Positions 4,688 through 46,025 of a DNA stretch of 46,713 nucleotides are shown one piece after another. This stretch comes from a virus (Duplodnaviria > Heunggongvirae > Uroviricota > Caudoviricetes): IMG/VR virus record IMGVR_UViG_2563366972_000004; one strand, written 5' to 3'. How positions within the stretch are numbered: position 1 is the first letter of the stretch; every line of letters begins with the position of its first letter. The translations under genes and the position numbers were made by a program. The notes below the pieces were generated by a model that was not told the origin of the DNA, made no database searches, and saw only the letters and a list, made by a program, of their open reading frames with translations.

Positions 4688-4949
4688 AAAAACTCCTGCC
4701 CGTAAGCTGGGCTGCTGAACATATAGAGACTTCTGCGCGTATTCAGGCGGTGGATGGCCGCCGGTTGTCATAACTAAGCCGCCTCGTTGAAGCGACTGAG
4801 GTATAAAGTGTTGTGTTGATTTCAGCTGGTCACACCGACGTTCACGCGTCCGCTTCACCCCTCGCACTCCCCGGAGCCTGCTGAAATTCAAGCTGCGGAT
4901 CTAAGCGGTCATCGCAACGGTGAATCAGGTGATTGCCGTATCGTTGTGT

Positions 4950-5030
4950 TGTTGCGACATGGGGATAATAGCTATTGCTATTGATGATATCAATACTTAT
5001 TGCTATTGCTAGATGTGTTTTGATATTAAA
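4950..5030. promoter_or_regulatory. Candidate OL/pL operator-promoter region
   Basis: Non-coding; two copies of TTGCTATTG(C) (4975-4983, 5000-5009) flank an inverted repeat TATTGAT-gat-ATCAATA (4979-4995). The same TTGCTATTG motif occurs twice in the cI-cro intergenic region. Confidence 0.4.
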
Positions 5031-5130
5031 TGTTTGATAGCAAAAAGAATTAATTTTGTGACTTGCATCGCATAGCGATAACTGAAGCGAGGTCGTGGTG
5101 GTTTTTTGAACGGTGTGTGATGAGGGGAGG

Positions 5131-5162
5131 GCAAAAGAAAACCCGGCACGGTGGCCGGGTTT
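5131..5162 (-). terminator. Intrinsic terminator closing the cI-distal cassette
   Basis: CCCGGC-acggtg-GCCGGG stem (5142-5159); on the minus strand it is followed by TTTTCTTTTG. Lies 77 nt after the stop of the 147-aa gene. Confidence 0.55.
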
Positions 5163-5236
5163 AGATGATTGGTTAAGAGCGAGGGTAATGGGGAATGAAA
5201 AATCGCTTTACCTAATGCAAGGGTGCGAGCATTTTC

Positions 5237-5680
5237 TTAAGCACTAAAGAAAAAGTACATTGATAGCTTATAAAGTCCTGTTCCTGCAGCGATGATTGCT
5301 GGAACACCAAGCAATACCGCAAGCTTTGCGTCTGAAATCTTTCTATCGACAGCATCACTTGATGGCTTGTTTGTTAAGGATTCTTTTATAGAGTCCAGAC
5401 GTGCAAGAATAGTTATCATATTTTTGTCGATAGCTTTAACGTCTGTTTTAAGTTCATCAACGTCTCGTTTGATATGAGCAACATCGGACTCCAGTTTTGC
5501 AACTTTTTCAGGCATGTTATCACTCCCAGACCCACTGCTACCACTTGATTGTAGCATGTCCCATCTTTTTCCAGATATACCTGCTAGCTGGGAAGACGCA
5601 CTGGAGTGCAAACAAAATGATTCTGCCGCCTTTGCAATTTTATCATTTAGGTTTGGAGCTTCGTAATAATCGTGTTTCAT
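5237..5680 (-). CDS. Unrecognised coiled-coil protein with single C-terminal membrane anchor (147 aa)
   Basis: ORF in track, ATG start. Gly/Ser linker (SSGSSGSGSD), heptad-like region (KVAKLESDVAHIKRDVDELKTDVKAIDKNMITILARLDSIKESL), C-terminal hydrophobic stretch LAVLLGVPAIIAAGTGLY. AT-rich. Confidence 0.6.
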   Translation of the reverse strand: MKHDYYEAPNLNDKIAKAAESFCLHSSASSQLAGISGKRWDMLQSSGSSGSGSDNMPEKVAKLESDVAHIKRDVDELKTDVKAIDKNMITILARLDSIKESLTNKPSSDAVDRKISDAKLAVLLGVPAIIAAGTGLYKLSMYFFFSA

Positions 5681-5692
5681 AATTAATTACGA

Positions 5693-5956
5693 TTAGTTTG
5701 TTTTAGCTTTGTCATGCTGGTCGCGAATGAAGTCAGCCAATTTAAGCATCAATTCTTCGGGCATTCTAATGGTTGCAATGTTGTACTTTATGTTCTCAAC
5801 ATCGTCACTTTCATCAACAGGCCATTCAGTTACATTATGAAAAAAAGAAATTGAACCTAGGCGCTGAGAGCCGTCACCAAACGAAGAGTAGCCAAACGCG
5901 TCGGCGTATGCATCGACACAGTTATTTGATTTTTTAACAAGTGTTTTATTACTCAT
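5693..5956 (-). CDS. Unrecognised small acidic protein (87 aa)
   Basis: ORF in track, ATG preceded by GGGAAAGG; stop 12 nt before the next gene's start. C-terminal IATIRMPEELMLKLADFI resembles a ribbon-helix-helix strand plus helix (tentative). AT-rich. Confidence 0.55.
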   Translation of the reverse strand: MSNKTLVKKSNNCVDAYADAFGYSSFGDGSQRLGSISFFHNVTEWPVDESDDVENIKYNIATIRMPEELMLKLADFIRDQHDKAKTN

Positions 5957-6038
5957 TTTTTGCCTTTCCCGTAATGTTATTTTTTATAAGGTATTTTCTT
6001 CAGCGTATTACCCAAAAGCCTCATCAACACGCGGCTGA

Positions 6039-6731
6039 TTATCCGTGTTTTCTGTACGTCTGCGGCATGCTCCCAATAACCTTACCGAATATGAATACCC
6101 GGTTCATCTCGTCTTTCTCGATCGGGTCCCACGGTGAGTAGCTCTTGTTATCAGAGATAACCAGTAGCTTATCCTTCATCATTTGCAGGCGCTTTACATG
6201 GGCGGTGTCGTCATACAGAAACGCATAGATACCATCACCGTCGAAAGATTTAACCGTGATATCAACGAACAGCAGATCACCTGGTTCGATCGTTCCTGAC
6301 ATGCTGTCACCACGCACGTTAATGATGCGGATATTTTCCGCCTTCCTGCCATCGAACATGTGACGAGCATCGTCAAACGAGTATTCAACCGAGCGTAGAA
6401 CTTCTACAAACTCACGGTTGATTACACCCGGCCCGGCACTGACTTCTATATCAAGAACGTCAATTTTGAAGTATTTGGAATGGCTGACAGCAGGCTTCCC
6501 TGATTGTTGACCGTCATTTCTCATCGGGCCTATGCCTGATGAGAGCCATTCTGTTCGAACACCCAATGCATTAGCTATTTCAACAATTTTTGTTGAGCCG
6601 CGCGCGTTGCCGCTTGTCAGTCTCCAGATTGTGGGTTGAGCTACGCCAGACGCCTTTGCAAGAGCGCCTTGAGACATTCCAGATTGTTCCATCGCTAGGT
6701 TTAAGCGATCAGCAAGAGTTTCTTTTTTCAT
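6039..6731 (-). CDS. cI: CI-like prophage repressor: N-terminal HTH, C-terminal S24 LexA-like peptidase domain (230 aa from ATG at 6731)
   Basis: HTH (MSQGALAKASGVAQPTIWRL) plus C-terminal autocleavage-type domain. The ATG at 6731 has no SD, consistent with a leaderless pRM transcript as in lambda; the track's longer ORF begins at an upstream TTG. Confidence 0.8.
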   Translation of the reverse strand: MKKETLADRLNLAMEQSGMSQGALAKASGVAQPTIWRLTSGNARGSTKIVEIANALGVRTEWLSSGIGPMRNDGQQSGKPAVSHSKYFKIDVLDIEVSAGPGVINREFVEVLRSVEYSFDDARHMFDGRKAENIRIINVRGDSMSGTIEPGDLLFVDITVKSFDGDGIYAFLYDDTAHVKRLQMMKDKLLVISDNKSYSPWDPIEKDEMNRVFIFGKVIGSMPQTYRKHG

Positions 6732-6841
6732 AAGTTTTAATTTATACGCTTGCGTATTGATGGTCAAAACACGTTTTGCTATTGCTTGGATTAATACGCA
6801 TTGCTATTATTCATTCATTGCAATACCAATAGGAATTGATA
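6732..6841. promoter_or_regulatory. OR / pRM-pR divergent control region
   Basis: Intergenic between divergent cI and cro; perfect palindrome ATACGC-tt-GCGTAT (6744-6757), TTGCTATTGC (6776-6785), TTGCTATT (6801-6808), palindrome ATTGCAAT (6817-6824). Confidence 0.6.
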
Positions 6842-11835: not shown

Positions 11836-11946
11836 GTAATAATCACTTTTTCAACCGTGCTATAGTAAGAAAGTTAGGTAAGTACAATAAAATTATCTAT
11901 CCTGAACGAAGCGTCCTGAGCTATGGTTTTACTATAGGGACTGCCA

Positions 11947-12264
11947 ATGGATGCTGGCGTTCTCGTTCTAGCAGTTCAACAATCCCCAATCACAAAACAA
12001 TTCACTGATAACGAACTTTGCACACTCGCCTGGTTATGGCGAGCAGGGAATGTGATGTTAATTGCCTACCAGAACGTTACTCATCTTCTTCAGGATGCGG
12101 AGCATGGTGAAGCTGGTCACTTCACTTCCATCGAGCAAGAATATCCCCAGATACTCAACAGAGCGCGAGCAATCCTCGTCCGAGAAACGGCACATGTAAA
12201 ACTTCAGCCGTGGCAGGATGATAAGTGGAGTCGAGTATTGCCGTATTTGCGTCAAATCTGTTAG
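11947..12264 (+). CDS. Hypothetical protein (105 aa)
   Basis: ORF in track with AGGGA upstream; not recognised; could be a gene remnant. Confidence 0.3.
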   Translation: MDAGVLVLAVQQSPITKQFTDNELCTLAWLWRAGNVMLIAYQNVTHLLQDAEHGEAGHFTSIEQEYPQILNRARAILVRETAHVKLQPWQDDKWSRVLPYLRQIC

Positions 12265-12361
12265 GAGTATAGCCGCCAGCCATGAGTGTTGTATTAAAAC
12301 AAGGATGTCTATATATGGGATAGCGAGAGTATGAATATCAGTTATTTTGAGAGTTAACTGA

Positions 12362-12405
12362 TTGTGAAATTAGTTTTTTTCACAAACGAGTGGGGTTACT
12401 ATGAT
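12362..12405 (+). promoter_or_regulatory. Candidate sigma70 promoter with overlapping inverted-repeat operator for the 309-aa gene
   Basis: Inverted repeat TTGTGAAA-7nt-TTTCACAA (12362-12385); -35-like TTCACA (12379-12384) and -10-like TATGAT (12400-12405), 15-nt spacer. Confidence 0.4.
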
Positions 12406-12468
12406 GAGTGTTCTAATGCATAGGGAACACCTAATTTTTTCAATGAATTCAAATTGATAGGATCAAAA

Positions 12469-13398
12469 ATGGCACAACAGAGAACTACCTCCCTCAGATC
12501 CATACCTTTAGACTTAGATGTTAAGCAAGAGGCTGTCATTAACGGTATAGAAATGGGGGTACTCGATAACGGAATTCCGTACCTTACTCAGAATGGGTTG
12601 GCAAATGTTTGTGGTGTTCAGCGTTTGCGAATCAAGGAAATTACCGATGAGTGGGCTCAATCCGTTGAGAACGGTATTTTCAAAAAAGGAAGAATGACTT
12701 TTATTGGTACATATCTTCTTAATGAAGGTTTTACAGATGAAAAACTTTATATACCAATAATTCGAAATGGTGTTGAGTACCATGCTTATCCAGATGTTGT
12801 ATGCATGGCTATACTTGAATACTATGCCTTTGAAGCAAAACAAGCAGAAAGTGAGACTGCAATTAGATCTTACAGAGAGCTTGCTAAAAAAGGCCTCAAG
12901 ACATTTATATACGAGGCGCTAAAATATCAACCGGAGGACCCGTGGAGGCATTACCATGACAGAGTATCTTTATTAAAAGATAAGGGAACCATACCTGATG
13001 GGTATTTCATTATATTTAATGAAATTGCAGGTATGATGGTAGATCTCATCAATGCTGGATTAGCGATTAATCAGCATACCGTACCTGATGGCAGTGTTGG
13101 TTCTTGCTGGGCGCGTCACTGGAAAGCAAAGGGGTTAGCAACAGAATTTGGAGAAAGAGTAGACTGTGAGCATTATTACCCTGAAGATTTTCTTCAGGCA
13201 AGTTCCAATCCTCAGATCATTAATGCCTATCCTGATTCTGCATTGTCAGAGTTTCGTAGATGGTTTAAGCATGAATATTTAACCACAAAGTTCCCACCGT
13301 ATATTCTTAAAAAATCAAACGTGCTTCCTGGTGGTACAGAAGATGCTAATCGTCTGATAGAAGCTTTCAAAAAATCAGAGCTAGAAAATAAACCATAA
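12469..13398 (+). CDS. Unrecognised prophage accessory protein (309 aa from ATG at 12469)
   Basis: ORF in track; ATG at 12469 with AGGA 8 nt upstream; AT-rich; not recognised. Contains YPD-x12-EAK, a possible PD-(D/E)xK-like nuclease motif (tentative). Confidence 0.6.
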   Translation: MAQQRTTSLRSIPLDLDVKQEAVINGIEMGVLDNGIPYLTQNGLANVCGVQRLRIKEITDEWAQSVENGIFKKGRMTFIGTYLLNEGFTDEKLYIPIIRNGVEYHAYPDVVCMAILEYYAFEAKQAESETAIRSYRELAKKGLKTFIYEALKYQPEDPWRHYHDRVSLLKDKGTIPDGYFIIFNEIAGMMVDLINAGLAINQHTVPDGSVGSCWARHWKAKGLATEFGERVDCEHYYPEDFLQASSNPQIINAYPDSALSEFRRWFKHEYLTTKFPPYILKKSNVLPGGTEDANRLIEAFKKSELENKP

Positions 13399-13594
13399 TT
13401 GTTTTTTGGCTTTTGATTTTACATAATCATTTTGCCATAATCATGTCATCGGAGCCTGAACAACTCCGGTGACTTCTGCGCTAAACGGGGACGTTTATGC
13501 GCACATACAATCCAAACTCTCTTCTCCCTTCACAGATGCAGAGATGCACCTGCGATTTTTTGCATCCAGCGTTTGACCTCTGCGGAGGTGAAGC

Positions 13595-15657: not shown

Positions 15658-16755
15658 TTAGAACTGGTAAACCAGACCTACAGCAACGATGTCATCAGTG
15701 CTTACACCGAGTGCTTTAGTGAAGTCATTTTTGTCAAGCAGGTTGATTTTGTAATCAACGAAAGTAGACATATTTTTGTTGAAGTAATAGGTTGCACCTA
15801 CATCAACATATTTGACTAAGTCCTGATCGCCCCATACTCCAAGATCTTTACCTTTAGATTGCAGGTAAGCAACGGACGGACGCAGACCGAAATCGAACTG
15901 ATATTGTGCAACAGCTTCGAAGTTTTGGGCTTTATTAGCAACGAAGTGATCAGCAAATACAGTCATATTCTGGGTTTCAGAATAGGTAGTGGCCAGGTAA
16001 ATGTTGTTAGCGTCATATTTCAGACCTGCGGCCCAAACTTCTGCATTTTTACCGGAAGCAAATACTTCAGGAAGAACTTTCCCTGCATTAACTTGAGTGT
16101 CGGTACGATCAGATTTCGCATAAGTTGCACCGATACCGAATCCTTCGTATTCATAGGTAGCAGAGAAACCGAAGCCATCACCGTTACCTTCAGTGTAGTT
16201 ATCGAAATCGCTACGATCGTTTTTGCCTTGGTACTGAGCAGCAAAGTTCAGACCATCAACCAGACCAAAGAAGTCGTTGTTACGATAGGTTGCAACACCA
16301 GTGGTGCGACCAGTCATGAACACATCTGTTTGGGTCCAGGTATCGCCACCGAATTCTGGCAGAACGTCAGTCCACGCACCGATGTCGTATGCTACACCGT
16401 AGTTACGGCCGTAATCGATTGAGCCGTAGTCACCGAATTTCAGGCCTGCAAATGCAAGACGGGTTTTGTCTTTGGAGGAACCTTGAGATTCAGCGCGGTT
16501 GCCTTTGAATTCATATTCCCACTGACCGAAACCAGTCAGTTGATCGTTGATTTGGGTTTCACCTTTGAAGCCAAGACGGGCATAAGTAGTATCACCATCA
16601 TCTGCATCATTAGAGGAGAAGTAGTGCTTGGCATTAACTTTCCCGTACAGATCCAGCTTGTTACTGTCTTTATTATAAATTTCAGCTGCCTGAGCAGACA
16701 TCGCCATCAGTACTGATGCAGCTACAGCAGAAATTGCCACTGTTAATTTTTTCAT
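15658..16755 (-). CDS. nmpC: Outer membrane porin NmpC (OmpC/OmpF family), 365 aa, apparently intact
   Basis: Signal peptide ([23 protein letters not shown]), porin beta-barrel motifs, C-terminal ...GLVYQF; matches recalled NmpC. No interruption seen. Confidence 0.9.
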
Positions 16756-19519: not shown

Positions 19520-19780
19520 GATGCACGTTGTGATATGTAGATGATAATTATTATCATTTTTCGGGTCCTTTCCGGCGATCCGACAGGTTACGGGGCGGCG
19601 ACCTCGCGGGTTTTCGCTATTTATGAAAATTTTCCGGTTTAAGGCATTTCCGTTCTTCTTCGTCGTAACTTAATGTTTTTATTTAAAATACCCCCTGAAA
19701 AGAAAGGAAACGACAGGTGCTGAAAACGAGCTTTTGGGCCTCTGTCGTTTCCTTTCTCTGTTTTTGGCCGTGGAATGAAC
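19520..19780. other. cos: cos region: cosQ-cosN-cosB; 12-nt cohesive-end sequence GGGCGGCGACCT at 19593-19604
   Basis: Sequence from about 19580 to 19780 matches the recalled lambda genome ends (..CGACAGGTTACG|GGGCGGCGACCTCGCGGGTTTTCGCTATTTATGAAAATTTTCCGG..). Confidence 0.85.
19773..19780. repeat. Target site duplication GAATGAAC (left copy)
   Basis: Identical 8 bp immediately flank both ends of the IS66-family element. Confidence 0.85.
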
Positions 19781-19810
19781 GTAAGCGGCTCGCCAGAACC
19801 GTATTGATAT

Positions 19811-21382
19811 TTACCGAGTGGTCAGAGCAACCTTCCAGGGCAACAGATCGCGCACCCGGTTTGCCGGCCAGTCCGGGATATGTTCAATGACGTAACGCAG
19901 CCATTTTTCTGGCTCCACATTGTTCAGGCGGCATGTGCCGATCAGCGAGTACAACACCGCCGTATGTTCGCCACCGCTGTCGGAACCCGCGAACAGCCAG
20001 TTTTTCCGGCCTACGGCCACTCCCCGTAAGGCGTTCTCTGCGATGTTGTTGTCGATTTCCACCCAGCCATTACTGCAGTACACGTTCAGGCTGTCCCACT
20101 GTTTCAGCAGGTATGCGAACGCTTTTGCCGTATCTGAGTGACGCGACAGTGTTTTCATCTGAGTCTGTATCCAGTCATACAGTGACTGCATCAGTGGCGC
20201 AGCTCTGGCTTTTCTTGCCGCCAGACGCTGTTCTGCTGAACATCCCCGGACCTCCGCCTCAATGGCATACAGTTCACCGATACGCTGCAGGGCTTCCGTG
20301 GTGATATCGGTGGGCGCTCTTGCATGCACATCGTGGATTTTTCTCCGGGCATGAGCCATACACGCGGCTTCCGTTATTCTGCCGGATTCGTATAACGCCC
20401 GGTAACCACCGTAAGCATCGGCCTGAAGCACACCGCTGTAACCGGCCAGGTGATTCTGTGGATGGATACCTTTCCGGTCCGGACTGTACGCGAACCAGAC
20501 CGCCGGGGGCATCTGTGAACCGGCGTTACGGTCATCACGGACGTAGACCCACAGCCGGGCGGTCCGGGTTTTACCGCTGCCCGGCTCCTGGACCGGGACG
20601 GGGATATCATCAGCATGGACTTTACCGGGCATCAGCACATACTGGCGCAGGACGTCATACAGCGGCTCCAGCAGTTCAGCAACGGCACCTGTCCAGCGCC
20701 CCAGTGTGGCACGGCTCAGCTCCACTCCCTGACGACGGTATATTTCTGACTGACGGTATAACGGCAGATGGTCTGCATATTTCCCGGTGACAACATGAGC
20801 CAGAAGCCCCGCTCCGGCATAACTGCGTGTAATGGGTTTTGAAGGCACCGGTGCCTGCACGATATGGTCGCACCGGCAACAGGCCAGTTTCGGACGTTGT
20901 GTTTCGATGACCTTAAAGGCGCTGCTGATAAGTTCCAGTTGCTCTGACACATCACATCCCAGAGAAGTGAGGTCACCGCCGCAGGCCGGGCAGCATTCCT
21001 CTTCCGGCCGGATGACCCGGGTTTCACGGGGAAGTGAGGCCGGTAACGGTTTACGGGCTGAAGACTGGCGCAGGGCGGATGGCAGTGCCGGGTCATATTG
21101 CTCACCCAGTGTTTCCGCCATTTCTTCCTGAAGTGCGCTGATTCGCTCCTGTGCTTCCTGTATCTGCCGTTCGGTTTTTGCGCGAAGTTTTTCTGAGCTT
21201 TTACCGAACTGCATACGCTGCAGTTTCGCAACCAGCGCCTTCAGTCGGTTGATTTCGGAAGCATAAGCCGCCACCCGCTGTGAGAGCAGGCGGGTGTATT
21301 CAGCCATCTGGCGGATGGTGTCCTGTTGCGTCTGCAACAGTGCCCGCAGGCGGGCGTTCTCATGAGCAAGTGAGGTGTCCAT
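19811..21382 (-). CDS. IS66-family transposase TnpC (523 aa)
   Basis: Leucine-zipper N-terminus, Cys-rich CCPACG...CCRCDH motif, typical IS66 TnpC length. Confidence 0.85.
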
Positions 21383-21401
21383 ATCCTCACTTTACAACGG
21401 G

Positions 21402-21749
21402 TTATATGCGGATTCCAGCGCGTTCCGTTCGTTTCGGGTGCTTCCAGTTGATACCTTCAAGAAGCATGGATAACTGAGCCGGAGTAAGGTGCACCTTGCC
21501 GTCGCGGGTGACCGGCCAGACGAAGCGGCCCCGCTCCAGGCGTTTGGTGAAGAGGCACAGTCCGTCGCTGTCAGCCCACAGCACTTTTATCTGGTCACCC
21601 CGGCGTCCGCGGAAGATGAACAGGTGTCCGGAGAACGGGTCATCCTTCAGGACGTTCTGAACTTTTGATGCCAGGCCGTTAAAGCCATTCCGCATGTCAG
21701 TAATACCGGCAACCAGCCAGATACGTGAACCGGCAGGGAGAGATATCAT
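21402..21749 (-). CDS. IS66 accessory protein TnpB (115 aa)
   Basis: Typical IS66 orf2 size and position; overlaps orf1 stop. Confidence 0.8.
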   Translation of the reverse strand: MISLPAGSRIWLVAGITDMRNGFNGLASKVQNVLKDDPFSGHLFIFRGRRGDQIKVLWADSDGLCLFTKRLERGRFVWPVTRDGKVHLTPAQLSMLLEGINWKHPKRTERAGIRI

Positions 21750-22399
21750 CAGTGGCTGCTCCCTTTCATTTCGCGGATAAGTGTCTGTAATAACGCCGGC
21801 GTCAGTTTACCTTTAAGCCTGAGAGTTCCGGCCGGCAGAACCAGCTCACAGCACAGACTGTCTGGCGGTGTATTTATCTGTTCAGGTATCTGCACTGGTG
21901 CCGGGATTTTATTATCCGGCTCCGGAGTTAACGTCACGGGAAGCAGCGATGTTTCATGTTCGCCGGGCGGCTGCAGGCCGCCGTTACGCCAGAGATGCCG
22001 CCAGTTGAAGAGCAGGTTATCGTTGATTCCGTTCTCACGAGCTATTTGTGCGACACAGGCACCGGGTAAAAGAGTTTGCTGAACAAGTCTCCATTTAAAC
22101 TCCGGTGAAAATCGGTTCCGGCGGGTTTTCTCTGCTTTCACAGGCTGAGTCACTGTCGGGGTTGAAGGATATCGCCCCGGGAAAAGAGCCCGGGCCAGTT
22201 GCCTGCAGGAATATTCACCGGAAAGGGGCCAGTCAGTGAATACCTGGTGAAATCGCTTCACCAGAGAAAAAATGGCGGTTTTGCTGACACCAGTCTGCGC
22301 AGAAATGCGCGGGTACGACAGTGACTCGTCAAATCTCAGCTGTAGCACACGCAGGATCAATTCCGGATTATCTGCCAGTACCGCCTTTCGTGCATTCAT
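21749..22399 (-). CDS. IS66 accessory protein TnpA/orf1 (216 aa)
   Basis: First ORF of the IS66 operon with N-terminal HTH-like region. Confidence 0.7.
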   Translation of the reverse strand: MNARKAVLADNPELILRVLQLRFDESLSYPRISAQTGVSKTAIFSLVKRFHQVFTDWPLSGEYSCRQLARALFPGRYPSTPTVTQPVKAEKTRRNRFSPEFKWRLVQQTLLPGACVAQIARENGINDNLLFNWRHLWRNGGLQPPGEHETSLLPVTLTPEPDNKIPAPVQIPEQINTPPDSLCCELVLPAGTLRLKGKLTPALLQTLIREMKGSSH

Positions 22400-22484
22400 C
22401 TTAAATGTCCTTTTACTGCGAAAATGGACATTAGTATCGGAAACAGGAAAGGGAGGCGAAAGACGGTTTAAATGAGGCGCTTAC

Positions 22485-22492
22485 GAATGAAC
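22485..22492. repeat. Target site duplication GAATGAAC (right copy)
   Basis: Second copy; ends 1 bp before the Nu1 ATG (22494). Confidence 0.85.
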
Positions 22493-45450: not shown

Positions 45451-46025
45451 TGGCATTCAGAATGAGTGAACAACCACGGACCATAAAAATTTATAATCTG
45501 CTGGCCGGAACTAATGAATTTATTGGTGAAGGTGACGCATATATTCCGCCTCATACAGGTCTGCCAGCAAACAGTACCGATATTGCACCACCAGATATTC
45601 CTGCTGGCTTTGTGGCTGTTTTCAACAGTGATGAGGCATCGTGGCATCTCGTTGAAGATCATCGGGGTAAAACGGTTTATGACGTGGCTTCCGGCGACGC
45701 GTTATTTATTTCTGAACTCGGTCCGTTACCGAAAAATGTTACCTGGTTATCGCCGGAAGGGGAGTTTCAGAAGTGGAACGGCACAGCCTGGGTGAAGGAT
45801 ACGGAAGCAGAAAAACTGTTCCGGATCCGGGAGGCGGAAGAAACAAAAAACAACCTGATGCAGGTAGCCAGTGAGCATATTGCGCCGCTTCAGGATGCTG
45901 CAGATCTGGAAATTGCAACGGAGGAAGAAATCTCGTTGCTGGAAGCATGGAAAAAGTATCGGGTATTGCTGAACCGTGTTGATACGTCAACTGCACAGGA
46001 TATTGAATGGCCAGCACTGCCGTAG
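45450..46025 (+). CDS. tfa: Tail fibre assembly protein Tfa (191 aa)
   Basis: [54 protein letters not shown]... matches recalled lambda Tfa; start overlaps the stf stop (TAATG). Confidence 0.9.

What the first reader, a model, noticed from the sequence alone, without database searches (positions are those of the whole stretch)
12280..13398. Unrecognised 309-aa accessory protein with its own promoter and operator-like inverted repeat
AT-rich single gene in the variable cargo slot between ren and ybcN, where K-12 DLP12 (from memory) carries different genes. Upstream is an inverted repeat TTGTGAAA-n7-TTTCACAA overlapping -35/-10-like elements. The protein contains YPD-x12-EAK, which could be a PD-(D/E)xK nuclease core, but I cannot confirm the fold. 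Size and context are typical of single-gene prophage defence or abortive-infection proteins.
Basis: partly seen in the sequence, partly recalled or inferred. Interest (0 to 1): 0.65.

Follow-up and report, generated by a model that had tools for sequence, protein, structure and literature searches.

The report
Known BstA prophage abortive-infection gene
The "unrecognised" 309-aa gene is a full-length member of the published BstA family of prophage abortive-infection defence proteins, so the defence guess was right, the nuclease guess was wrong, and the gene is not new.

Summary
The ORF is real: 12469-13398 on the + strand, 309 aa, 39% GC against 51% for the window. It matches the BstA models end to end (PADLOC 3.6e-121, PHROG 1.8e-136). 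The protein is identical to WP_000068668.1 of E. coli NCTC8623, one of the 72 homologues in the paper that defined BstA (Owen 2021). Hochhauser 2023 already reported bstA in lambda-like prophages at tRNA-Arg, which appears to be this site.

The inverted repeat exists, with an 8-nt spacer rather than 7. It is not conserved in relatives and is only mildly above chance. The promoter-like hexamers are no more frequent than chance.

Two things differ from the typical family picture. The gene sits in a cargo slot between ybcK and ylcH, not downstream of the repressor. I also found that about half to two-thirds of 71 bstA loci (depending on threshold) carry direct repeats 56-57 bp apart across the start codon. 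This matches the mapped anti-BstA (aba) element of phage BTP1 and predicts aba here at about 12420-12493.

Verdict: already known, low interest.

The parts
12469..13398 (+). bstA coding sequence (309 aa plus stop). It has an N-terminal DNA-binding-like domain (about residues 17-150) and a C-terminal BstA_C domain (about 155-305).
   Evidence: ORF. PADLOC BstA 3.6e-121 over residues 10-304. PHROG 6287 1.8e-136 over residues 5-308. The identical protein cluster carries PF26567, BstA_C. The protein is identical to WP_000068668.1. AF2 model pLDDT 84.
12420..12493 (+). Predicted anti-BstA (aba) self-immunity DNA element, spanning about 49 bp of leader and the first 25 bp of the gene. This is inferred, not tested.
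   Evidence: It sits at the position of the direct-repeat pair spaced 56-57 bp apart that straddles the start codon in about half to two-thirds of 71 bstA loci, depending on threshold. The BTP1 pair found the same way is the published aba. DNA homology to relatives' loci begins here.
12423..12433 (+). aba-like repeat, copy 1: GGGAACACCTA, in the 5' leader.
   Evidence: The GRGAWC hexamer starts at 12423. 'G.GAAC..C' is invariant across six relatives whose surrounding spacer DNA does not align.
12480..12491 (+). aba-like repeat, copy 2: GAGAACTACCTC, in codons 4-8.
   Evidence: The GRGAWC hexamer starts at 12480, exactly 57 bp after copy 1. The background rate is 0.058 per 100 nt per strand. 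'AGAGA.C...C' is invariant across relatives.
12459..12462 (+). Shine-Dalgarno-like AGGA, 6 nt before the ATG.
   Evidence: Read directly from the sequence.
12377..12405 (+). Best sigma-70-like promoter candidate: TTTTCA, 17-nt spacer, TATGAT. Unproven.
   Evidence: Scores 9 of 12 in the consensus scan. The number of matches in the region equals the chance expectation.
12362..12385 (.). Inverted repeat TTGTGAAA-N8-TTTCACAA. Its right arm overlaps the candidate -35 hexamer.
   Evidence: It is unique in the window. It is absent upstream of bstA in the 86%, 76% and 74% identical relatives.
12337..12362 (.). Second inverted repeat, ATCAGTTA-N10-TAACTGAT, directly abutting the first.
   Evidence: At least two such repeats occur in 0.9% of shuffles.
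12256..13410 (+). Extent of the bstA cargo module inside the prophage.
   Evidence: Left edge: similarity to strain PCP07014, which carries a different cargo gene, ends at about 12255. Right edge: similarity to K-12 resumes at about 13410. The module 12265-13398 is found in 121 of 5426 complete E. coli genomes, in 110 of them at 99% identity or more, and never on plasmids.
11947..12264 (+). Neighbouring 105-aa ORF containing only a P22 antirepressor C-terminal domain. It is probably a remnant and not a BstA partner.
   Evidence: Pfam P22_AR_C 7.7e-14. PHROG 7640 and Ant families. It occurs in 839 genomes, most without bstA. It is a pseudogene in NCTC8623, where bstA is intact.

Best explanation
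The gene is bstA, the single-protein abortive-infection defence of temperate phages. Here it is carried as a cargo module in a lambdoid prophage that is syntenic with DLP12, which in K-12 sits next to argU.

Shown here:
- Full-length family membership.
- Identity to a protein already catalogued as a BstA homologue.
- A two-domain predicted structure, with an N-terminal winged-helix / KilA-N-like DNA-binding fold and a C-terminal BstA_C domain that has no recognisable solved relative.
- A pair of short direct repeats 57 bp apart across the start codon, at the position where the family's self-immunity element lies.

Inferred from experiments on other alleles (BTP1, K. pneumoniae, E. coli NCTC10963; PMC8585504):
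- The protein is made in the lysogen.
- When a sensitive phage infects, the protein moves to the replicating phage DNA and blocks its replication. The infected cell dies without releasing progeny, which protects the population.
- When the host prophage itself is induced, the cognate aba DNA (predicted here at about 12420-12493) suppresses BstA, so the prophage is not aborted.

Inferred from position:
- In close relatives bstA lies just downstream of the CI-type repressor, and Owen et al. presume it shares the repressor's promoter.
- This copy lies in the nin-region slot between ybcK and ylcH. It therefore probably needs a promoter of its own in the module-specific 12265-12420 DNA.
- TTTTCA-17-TATGAT, overlapped by the inverted repeat, is the best but unproven candidate.

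How BstA stops replication is unknown for the whole family.
For: - Family match: PADLOC BstA 3.6e-121 over 287 of 292 profile positions. PHROG 6287, 'BstA abortive infection system, replication inhibitor', 1.8e-136.
- Identity to characterised relatives: 40% over 99% of the length to BstA-BTP1, E = 1e-64. 38-39% to the BstA-Ec-type protein of strain 2012C-4431.
- Family size: 1250 homologues at E of 1e-5 or below, and the listed ones carry PF26567, BstA_C.
- Prior cataloguing: the protein is identical to WP_000068668.1 in NCTC8623. Its coordinates fall within the entry LR134234 4557005-4557922 of Owen et al. Table S1.
- Prior report of the locus: Hochhauser 2023 found bstA in E. coli only in lambda-like prophages at tRNA-Arg.
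- Prophage context: integrase, exo/bet/gam, repressor, O/P, nin genes, Q, lysis, head and tail genes.
- aba signature across the family: at 57-bp spacing 32 of 71 loci have an exact repeat of 7 nt or more, and 6 do at 56 bp, against 0-4 at every other spacing from 30 to 90. 65% of loci reach 9 of 12 matches against 3.5% of control windows. Copy 1 lies upstream and copy 2 downstream of the nearest start codon in 35 of 46 loci. BTP1's published CCCGCC pair is recovered.
- aba signature in the window: GGGAAC at 12423 and GAGAAC at 12480, both conserved in relatives.
Against: - This allele has never been tested. It is only about 40% identical to the alleles that were.
- Its repeat pair is weaker than most in the family: 8 of 12 matches at 57 bp, a score reached by 14.6% of control windows when taken alone. 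There is a 1-nt offset between the two halves of the motif. In BTP1 single-base changes in either repeat abolish aba.
- The gene is not downstream of the repressor, the arrangement Owen et al. called strikingly conserved.
- Expression is not shown. The promoter-like match is at chance level.
- About six E. coli genomes have IS elements inserted in the locus. A 187-aa truncated form exists (P0039). The gene can therefore be lost without obvious cost.
- The host prophage carries an IS66-family insertion next to the terminase genes. Self-immunity may no longer matter here.
Confidence: 0.85

Rival explanations
1. One reading: the protein is a PD-(D/E)xK nuclease that degrades phage or host DNA, with D109, E122 and K124 as the catalytic triad.
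For: YPD-x12-EAK is present. D109 is invariant and position 122 is acidic in nearly all homologues. BstA does act on phage DNA replication (PMC8585504).
Confidence: 0.03
2. The gene is a decaying or re-purposed BstA copy. After moving out of the immunity region into a cargo slot of a DLP12-type prophage, it may no longer act as a defence. It could be unexpressed, or act as a KilA-N-type regulator, and its aba may be non-functional.
For: The position is non-canonical. The neighbouring antirepressor gene is a remnant. The repeat pair is imperfect. IS insertions and a truncated form occur in some genomes. An IS66-family element lies in the host prophage.
Against: The ORF is full length and every residue invariant across the 52-sequence family alignment is kept, since invariant columns include the window sequence by definition. 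The module is 99% or more identical in 110 genomes from many hosts and countries, which looks like a recently spreading intact allele. Both halves of the repeat are conserved relative to homologues at 69-86% identity.
Confidence: 0.1
3. The inverted repeat or repeats form a regulatory operator that makes bstA expression conditional, so that this copy is an inducible rather than a constitutive defence.
For: Two abutting perfect 8-bp inverted repeats occur in 0.9% of shuffles. The right arm overlaps the best -35 candidate.
Against: The repeats are not conserved upstream of bstA in the 86%, 76% and 74% identical relatives. No similar site exists elsewhere in the prophage, including the cI-cro operator region. 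TGTGA-N12-TCACA does not fit the TGTGA-N6-TCACA spacing of a CRP site (my reading of the sequence; the CRP consensus is from my own knowledge). All 110 E. coli copies are near-identical, so conservation within E. coli is uninformative.
Confidence: 0.25

Closest known systems
BstA of Salmonella prophage BTP1 (ST313-td; Owen et al. 2021, PMC8585504)
   Same: Same family over the full length (40% identity, E = 1e-64). Same two-domain layout. Prophage-borne. A short direct-repeat pair about 56-57 bp apart straddles the start codon, and in BTP1 this pair forms the ends of the mapped 63-bp aba element.
   Different: BTP1 bstA lies immediately downstream of the cI repressor. This copy lies in the nin-region slot between ybcK and ylcH, with its own upstream DNA. 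The repeat sequence differs: G(G/A)GAAC against CCCGCC. This allele has not been tested.
BstA-Ec of E. coli NCTC10963 (the tested E. coli allele; the same type occurs in strain 2012C-4431)
   Same: Same species and same family. Its locus also has a 57-bp-spaced repeat, GCAGATCCCT / GCGAATCCCT.
   Different: Only 38-39% identical to the window protein. It is encoded between the LexA-type repressor and N in a different lambdoid prophage. By the paper's finding of cognate aba specificity, the two alleles are not expected to cross-protect.
WP_000068668.1 in E. coli NCTC8623, a Table S1 homologue of Owen et al.; also the bstA prophages at tRNA-Arg hotspot #32 of Hochhauser et al. 2023 (PMC10121019)
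   Same: The protein is identical and the gene neighbourhood is the same: ybcK, P22AR_C ORF, bstA, ylcH, ybcN. Hochhauser et al. describe lambda-like prophages at tRNA-Arg, the DLP12 site.
   Different: Nothing substantive. In NCTC8623 the upstream P22AR_C ORF has an internal stop.
Lambda RexAB and other prophage cargo defences
   Same: A defence carried by a lambdoid prophage in a variable cargo slot, acting by abortive infection.
   Different: Unrelated proteins and mechanism. RexAB occupies the cI-N slot, which is the usual BstA position but not the position of this copy.

Membership tests
BstA abortive-infection family | Full-length sequence homology to BstA, covering both halves of the protein. 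| tested here: met
   PADLOC PDLC02356 3.6e-121, residues 10-304 on profile positions 5-291 of 292. PHROG 6287 1.8e-136. tblastn to BTP1 BstA covers 99% of the query at 40% identity.
BstA abortive-infection family | Two-domain architecture: an N-terminal KilA-N-like DNA-binding domain plus a C-terminal BstA_C domain. | tested here: met
   [not shown]
BstA abortive-infection family | Encoded by a prophage. | tested here: met
   The window is a lambdoid prophage running from integrase to tail fibres.
BstA abortive-infection family | Located immediately downstream of the prophage repressor. This is typical of the family but not universal. | tested here: not met
   The repressor ORF lies at about 6039-6767 (-). 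bstA is 5.7 kb away, on the other side of O, P, ren, emrE and ybcK. Relatives at 69-74% identity do sit directly after an S24 repressor. Owen et al. report this arrangement for 'many', not all, homologues.
BstA abortive-infection family | A cognate aba DNA element with terminal direct repeats overlapping the start of the gene. | tested here: inconclusive
   GGGAAC at 12423 and GAGAAC at 12480, 57 bp apart, occupy the family-typical position. The pair is imperfect, scoring 8 of 12. Function cannot be tested here.
BstA abortive-infection family | Abortive-infection phenotype with a block of phage DNA replication. | not testable with these tools
   Shown only for the BTP1, K. pneumoniae and NCTC10963 alleles.
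PD-(D/E)xK nuclease superfamily | A conserved catalytic D ... (D/E)xK triad. | tested here: not met
   D109 is invariant and position 122 is acidic. Position 124 is Q, K, R, S, T or P, S in BTP1 and T in the NCTC10963-type E. coli BstA.
PD-(D/E)xK nuclease superfamily | The alpha-beta-beta-beta-alpha-beta core, with the motif on adjacent strands of the central sheet. | tested here: not met
   [not shown]

The most novel reading that the evidence does not exclude
The aba self-immunity element may be a family-wide, position-locked architecture: two short direct repeats 56-57 bp apart across the bstA start codon. Their sequence differs from locus to locus while the spacing stays fixed. If so, aba elements and their specificity could be read directly from sequence for every BstA allele. 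For this allele the prediction is G(G/A)GAAC at 12423 and 12480.

The pattern would also point to a mechanism in which BstA's N-terminal DNA-binding domain recognises two sites about 5.4 helical turns apart. I found no description of this beyond the single BTP1 CCCGCC pair in the papers I could search.

A secondary point: this allele has left the repressor operon for a nin-region cargo slot and may have acquired its own regulated promoter.
Probability: 0.45. Interest if true: 0.45.

Novelty: already known. Interest (0 to 1): 0.2.

Why it matters
For the finding as given, little changes: it is a correct annotation of a published defence gene that older RefSeq records still call 'hypothetical protein'. 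Three points have some use.

- It gives a clean negative on the nuclease hypothesis for BstA, whose mechanism is still unknown.
- It shows that bstA can work from, or at least persist in, a slot other than the repressor operon. That slot is a cargo hotspot with at least three alternative contents in E. coli.
- The 57-bp repeat signature gives a testable, sequence-level prediction of the self-immunity element for untested alleles.

Tried and rejected
- Pfam-A and NCBIfam scans of the protein gave nothing significant. The local Pfam copy did not report BstA_C, although the precomputed annotation does.
- A profile search of PDB sequences found no relative; the best hit had E = 0.86.
- Foldseek against the PDB found nothing at E below 0.2.
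- An Rfam scan found no RNA family in the locus. RNA folding of the leader was unremarkable.
- I looked for the inverted repeat elsewhere in the prophage, including the cI-cro operators, and found none.
- I considered a CRP site. TGTGA...TCACA has 12 nt between the half-sites, not 6, so I rejected it.
- I considered the upstream 105-aa P22AR_C ORF as a partner gene. I rejected it because it occurs in 839 genomes mostly without bstA, and it is a pseudogene in NCTC8623.
- I first assumed the window was identical to strain GE3. It is not: a SIR2 gene seen in GE3 is absent from the window.
- PADLOC and Pfam gave no hit for the alternative 260-aa cargo protein or for the window's 147-aa ORF.

Full report
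**Observation**

It is AT-rich, at 39.0% GC for the gene and 33.8% for the 204-bp upstream spacer, against 51.3% for the window. YPD (residues 107-109) and EAK (122-124) are there.

The inverted repeat is TTGTGAAA (12362-12369) / TTTCACAA (12378-12385). Its spacer is 8 nt, not 7. A second perfect 8-bp inverted repeat, ATCAGTTA-N10-TAACTGAT (12337-12362), abuts it. Dinucleotide shuffles of the spacer contain at least one such repeat in 3.5% of cases and at least two in 0.9%.

The consensus scan lists one promoter-like site near the repeat, TTTTCA-17-TATGAT at 12377-12405. However, the region has 5 such sites against 5.0 expected by chance. The leader does not fold unusually well as RNA (z = -0.75), and no Rfam family matches it.

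**Identity**

The protein matches the BstA profile of PADLOC at 3.6e-121 over almost the whole profile. It matches PHROG 6287, 'BstA abortive infection system, replication inhibitor', at 1.8e-136. It is 40% identical over 99% of its length to BstA of Salmonella phage BTP1. It is 38-39% identical to the E. coli BstA-Ec type. It has 1250 homologues at E of 1e-5 or below, and the listed ones carry PF26567, BstA_C.

The translated protein is identical to WP_000068668.1 as annotated in strains GE3 and NCTC8623. NCTC8623, at LR134234 4557005-4557922, is one of the 72 representative BstA homologues in Table S1 of Owen et al. 2021. That paper (PMC8585504) defined the family.

According to that paper, BstA is expressed in lysogens, relocalises to replicating phage DNA, and blocks phage DNA replication, so that infection aborts at the population level. 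A short DNA element called aba overlaps the start of the gene and gives the induced prophage immunity to its own BstA. Each allele has its own cognate aba.

Hochhauser et al. 2023 (PMC10121019) reported that bstA in E. coli occurs only in lambda-like prophages integrated at tRNA-Arg. The window's prophage is syntenic with K-12 DLP12, which lies next to argU, so it appears to be that site. argU itself lies outside the window. The gene and its locus are therefore already described. Some newer RefSeq records name it 'BstA C-terminal domain-containing protein', while older ones say 'hypothetical protein'.

**Context**

The window is an essentially complete lambdoid prophage. It carries an integrase, exo/bet/gam, a repressor with its divergently transcribed HTH (cro-position) gene, O/P, ren, emrE, ybcK, nin-type genes, Q, a porin, lysis genes, terminase, head and tail genes. 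This follows the annotation of the 98-99% identical prophage of strain GE3.

K-12 has ybcL and ybcM between ybcK and ylcH. The window instead has a 105-aa ORF that is only the C-terminal domain of a P22-type antirepressor, followed by bstA. Similarity to K-12 stops just after the ybcK stop codon and resumes near 13410.

The antirepressor remnant occurs in 839 E. coli genomes. Similarity to those genomes ends at about 12255-12262. In strain PCP07014 a different 260-aa protein of unknown family follows the remnant. The bstA module is therefore about 12256-13410, sitting in a cargo slot with at least three alternative contents.

The module is present in 121 of 5426 complete E. coli genomes. In 110 of them it is 99% identical or more. 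It is always chromosomal and never on a PLSDB plasmid. A few copies are interrupted by IS elements.

Relatives at 69-74% identity (Lonsdalea, Morganella) sit in the typical place, directly after an S24-type repressor and, in Lonsdalea, before N. This E. coli allele is the exception in position.

Being in the nin region, it should not be transcribed from the repressor promoter. A promoter in the module-specific DNA at 12265-12420 is therefore a reasonable inference, but it is not shown. That DNA, including both inverted repeats, does not align with the upstream regions of the 86%, 76% and 74% identical relatives. The repeats are thus not a conserved part of the BstA system.

**The nuclease hypothesis**

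In 52 homologues D109 is invariant and E122 is present in 50. Position 124 is Q 20, K 19, R 6, S 3, T 1 and P 1. It is serine in BstA-BTP1 and threonine in the BstA-Ec-type protein, and E117 is arginine in the latter. BstA-BTP1 and BstA-Ec of NCTC10963 are both experimentally active.

The AlphaFold model (pLDDT 84) places D109 at the start and E122 at the end of one helix (109-122) that follows a beta-hairpin. In PD-(D/E)xK enzymes, by established knowledge of the fold, these residues lie on adjacent strands of the central sheet.

**The self-immunity element**

In BTP1 the aba element is a 63-bp stretch from -29 to +34 around the start codon. Its terminal CCCGCC direct repeats are each essential. 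The paper mapped it only in BTP1.

I fetched 79 bstA loci from species-representative genomes, using patterns from the C-terminal part of the protein. I then looked at the start of the gene in 71 non-redundant loci.

- Exact direct repeats of 7 nt or more occur at a spacing of 57 bp in 32 loci and at 56 bp in 6. Every other spacing from 30 to 90 bp has 0-4 loci.
- Allowing mismatches, 65% of loci have at least 9 of 12 matches at 56/57 bp in the expected register, against 3.5% of control windows from the same loci. 49% have at least 10 of 12, against 0.7% of controls.
- The first copy starts a median of 45 nt before the position aligned to residue 1. In 35 of 46 loci the two copies lie on either side of the nearest start codon.
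- The repeat sequence differs from locus to locus, with 40 distinct 12-mers in 40 loci, while the two copies within a locus agree. Within-locus matches average 10.6 of 12. Between loci the average is 4.7, but that comparison is only roughly registered.
- The method recovers BTP1's CCCGCCA pair at 56 bp, and finds GCAGATCCCT / GCGAATCCCT at 57 bp in the BstA-Ec-type locus.

In the window, GGGAAC starts at 12423 and GAGAAC at 12480, exactly 57 bp apart. This hexamer class occurs only 0.058 times per 100 nt per strand in the window. Both copies align with conserved blocks in six relatives: 'G.GAAC..C' in the leader and 'AGAGA.C...C' in codons 4-8. The DNA around the first block is otherwise unalignable.

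The pair is weaker than in most loci. It scores 8 of 12, and the ACCT part is offset by one base. I therefore predict aba at about 12420-12493 but cannot say whether it works. I found no paper describing this family-wide architecture.

**Mechanism, committed**

I consider it most likely (about 0.85) that this is a functional or recently functional BstA. On that reading it is made in the lysogen, aborts infection by blocking replication of incoming phage DNA, and is silenced on induction of its own prophage by the repeat-flanked aba DNA at its start. Family membership and the repeat architecture are shown here. Expression, defence and aba function are inferred from other alleles.

The main rival is a decaying or re-purposed copy (about 0.1). 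The nuclease model is about 0.03. Whether the inverted repeats are an operator is a separate, open question (about 0.25).

**Verdict**

This is a correct re-identification of a known defence gene. It is already known and of low interest (0.2). The nuclease idea is refuted, and the promoter and operator idea is unproven. The by-product, the 56/57-bp repeat signature of aba across the family, is the only part that might be new.

Noticed in passing
loci L003, L004, L007-L088 (start of each bstA homologue); window 12423 and 12480: Across 71 non-redundant bstA loci from several phyla, a pair of direct repeats 56-57 bp apart straddles the start codon. At least 7 nt match exactly in 38 loci, and 65% reach 9 of 12 matches against 3.5% of controls. 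The repeat sequence varies between loci while the spacing stays fixed. This generalises the terminal CCCGCC repeats of the BTP1 aba element.
   Followed up: yes
window 11836-13410; L005 6430-8370 (K-12); L093 3870-4920 (PCP07014): The interval between ybcK and ylcH is a cargo hotspot with at least three alternative contents in E. coli. K-12 has ybcL plus ybcM. The window has a P22AR_C remnant plus bstA. PCP07014 has the P22AR_C remnant plus a 260-aa protein (WP_001348590.1) with no Pfam or PADLOC match.
   Followed up: partly
window 19780-22485: An IS66-family element is inserted immediately upstream of the small terminase / nohD gene. Its ORFs all lie on the minus strand: transposase at 19811-21382, TnpB at 21402-21749 and an HTH ORF at 21749-22399. 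The element is absent from the otherwise 98-99% identical prophage of strain GE3 and may cripple packaging.
   Followed up: partly
window 4924-6040; L006 4324-5925: The slot downstream of the prophage repressor, which is the usual BstA / RexAB position, differs between strains. GE3 carries a 533-aa SIR2-family gene there. The window has unrelated DNA with a 147-aa ORF (5237-5680, minus strand) that matches no Pfam or PADLOC family.
   Followed up: partly
window 11947-12264: A 105-aa ORF consists only of a P22 antirepressor C-terminal domain (Pfam 7.7e-14) and matches the C-terminal ends of the Ant PHROG profiles; related phage hits are annotated as Rha protein. It is present in 839 E. coli genomes and is a pseudogene in NCTC8623.
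   Followed up: partly
E. coli genome hits H1-H6 and H112-H113; protein P0039: Several genomes have IS1, IS2 or IS3 insertions inside this bstA module. A 187-aa truncated form that is 100% identical over its length is recorded in 54 sequences. This suggests recurrent inactivation.
   Followed up: no
[not shown]
   Followed up: partly
window 45793-45991 (+): A full-length match to the Rfam family IS009 (RF02111), at 220.9 bits against a gathering score of 117. It lies near the right end of the window.
   Followed up: no
window 15658-16755 (-): A 365-aa porin ORF is uninterrupted at the position where K-12 DLP12 has nmpC disrupted by IS5.
   Followed up: no
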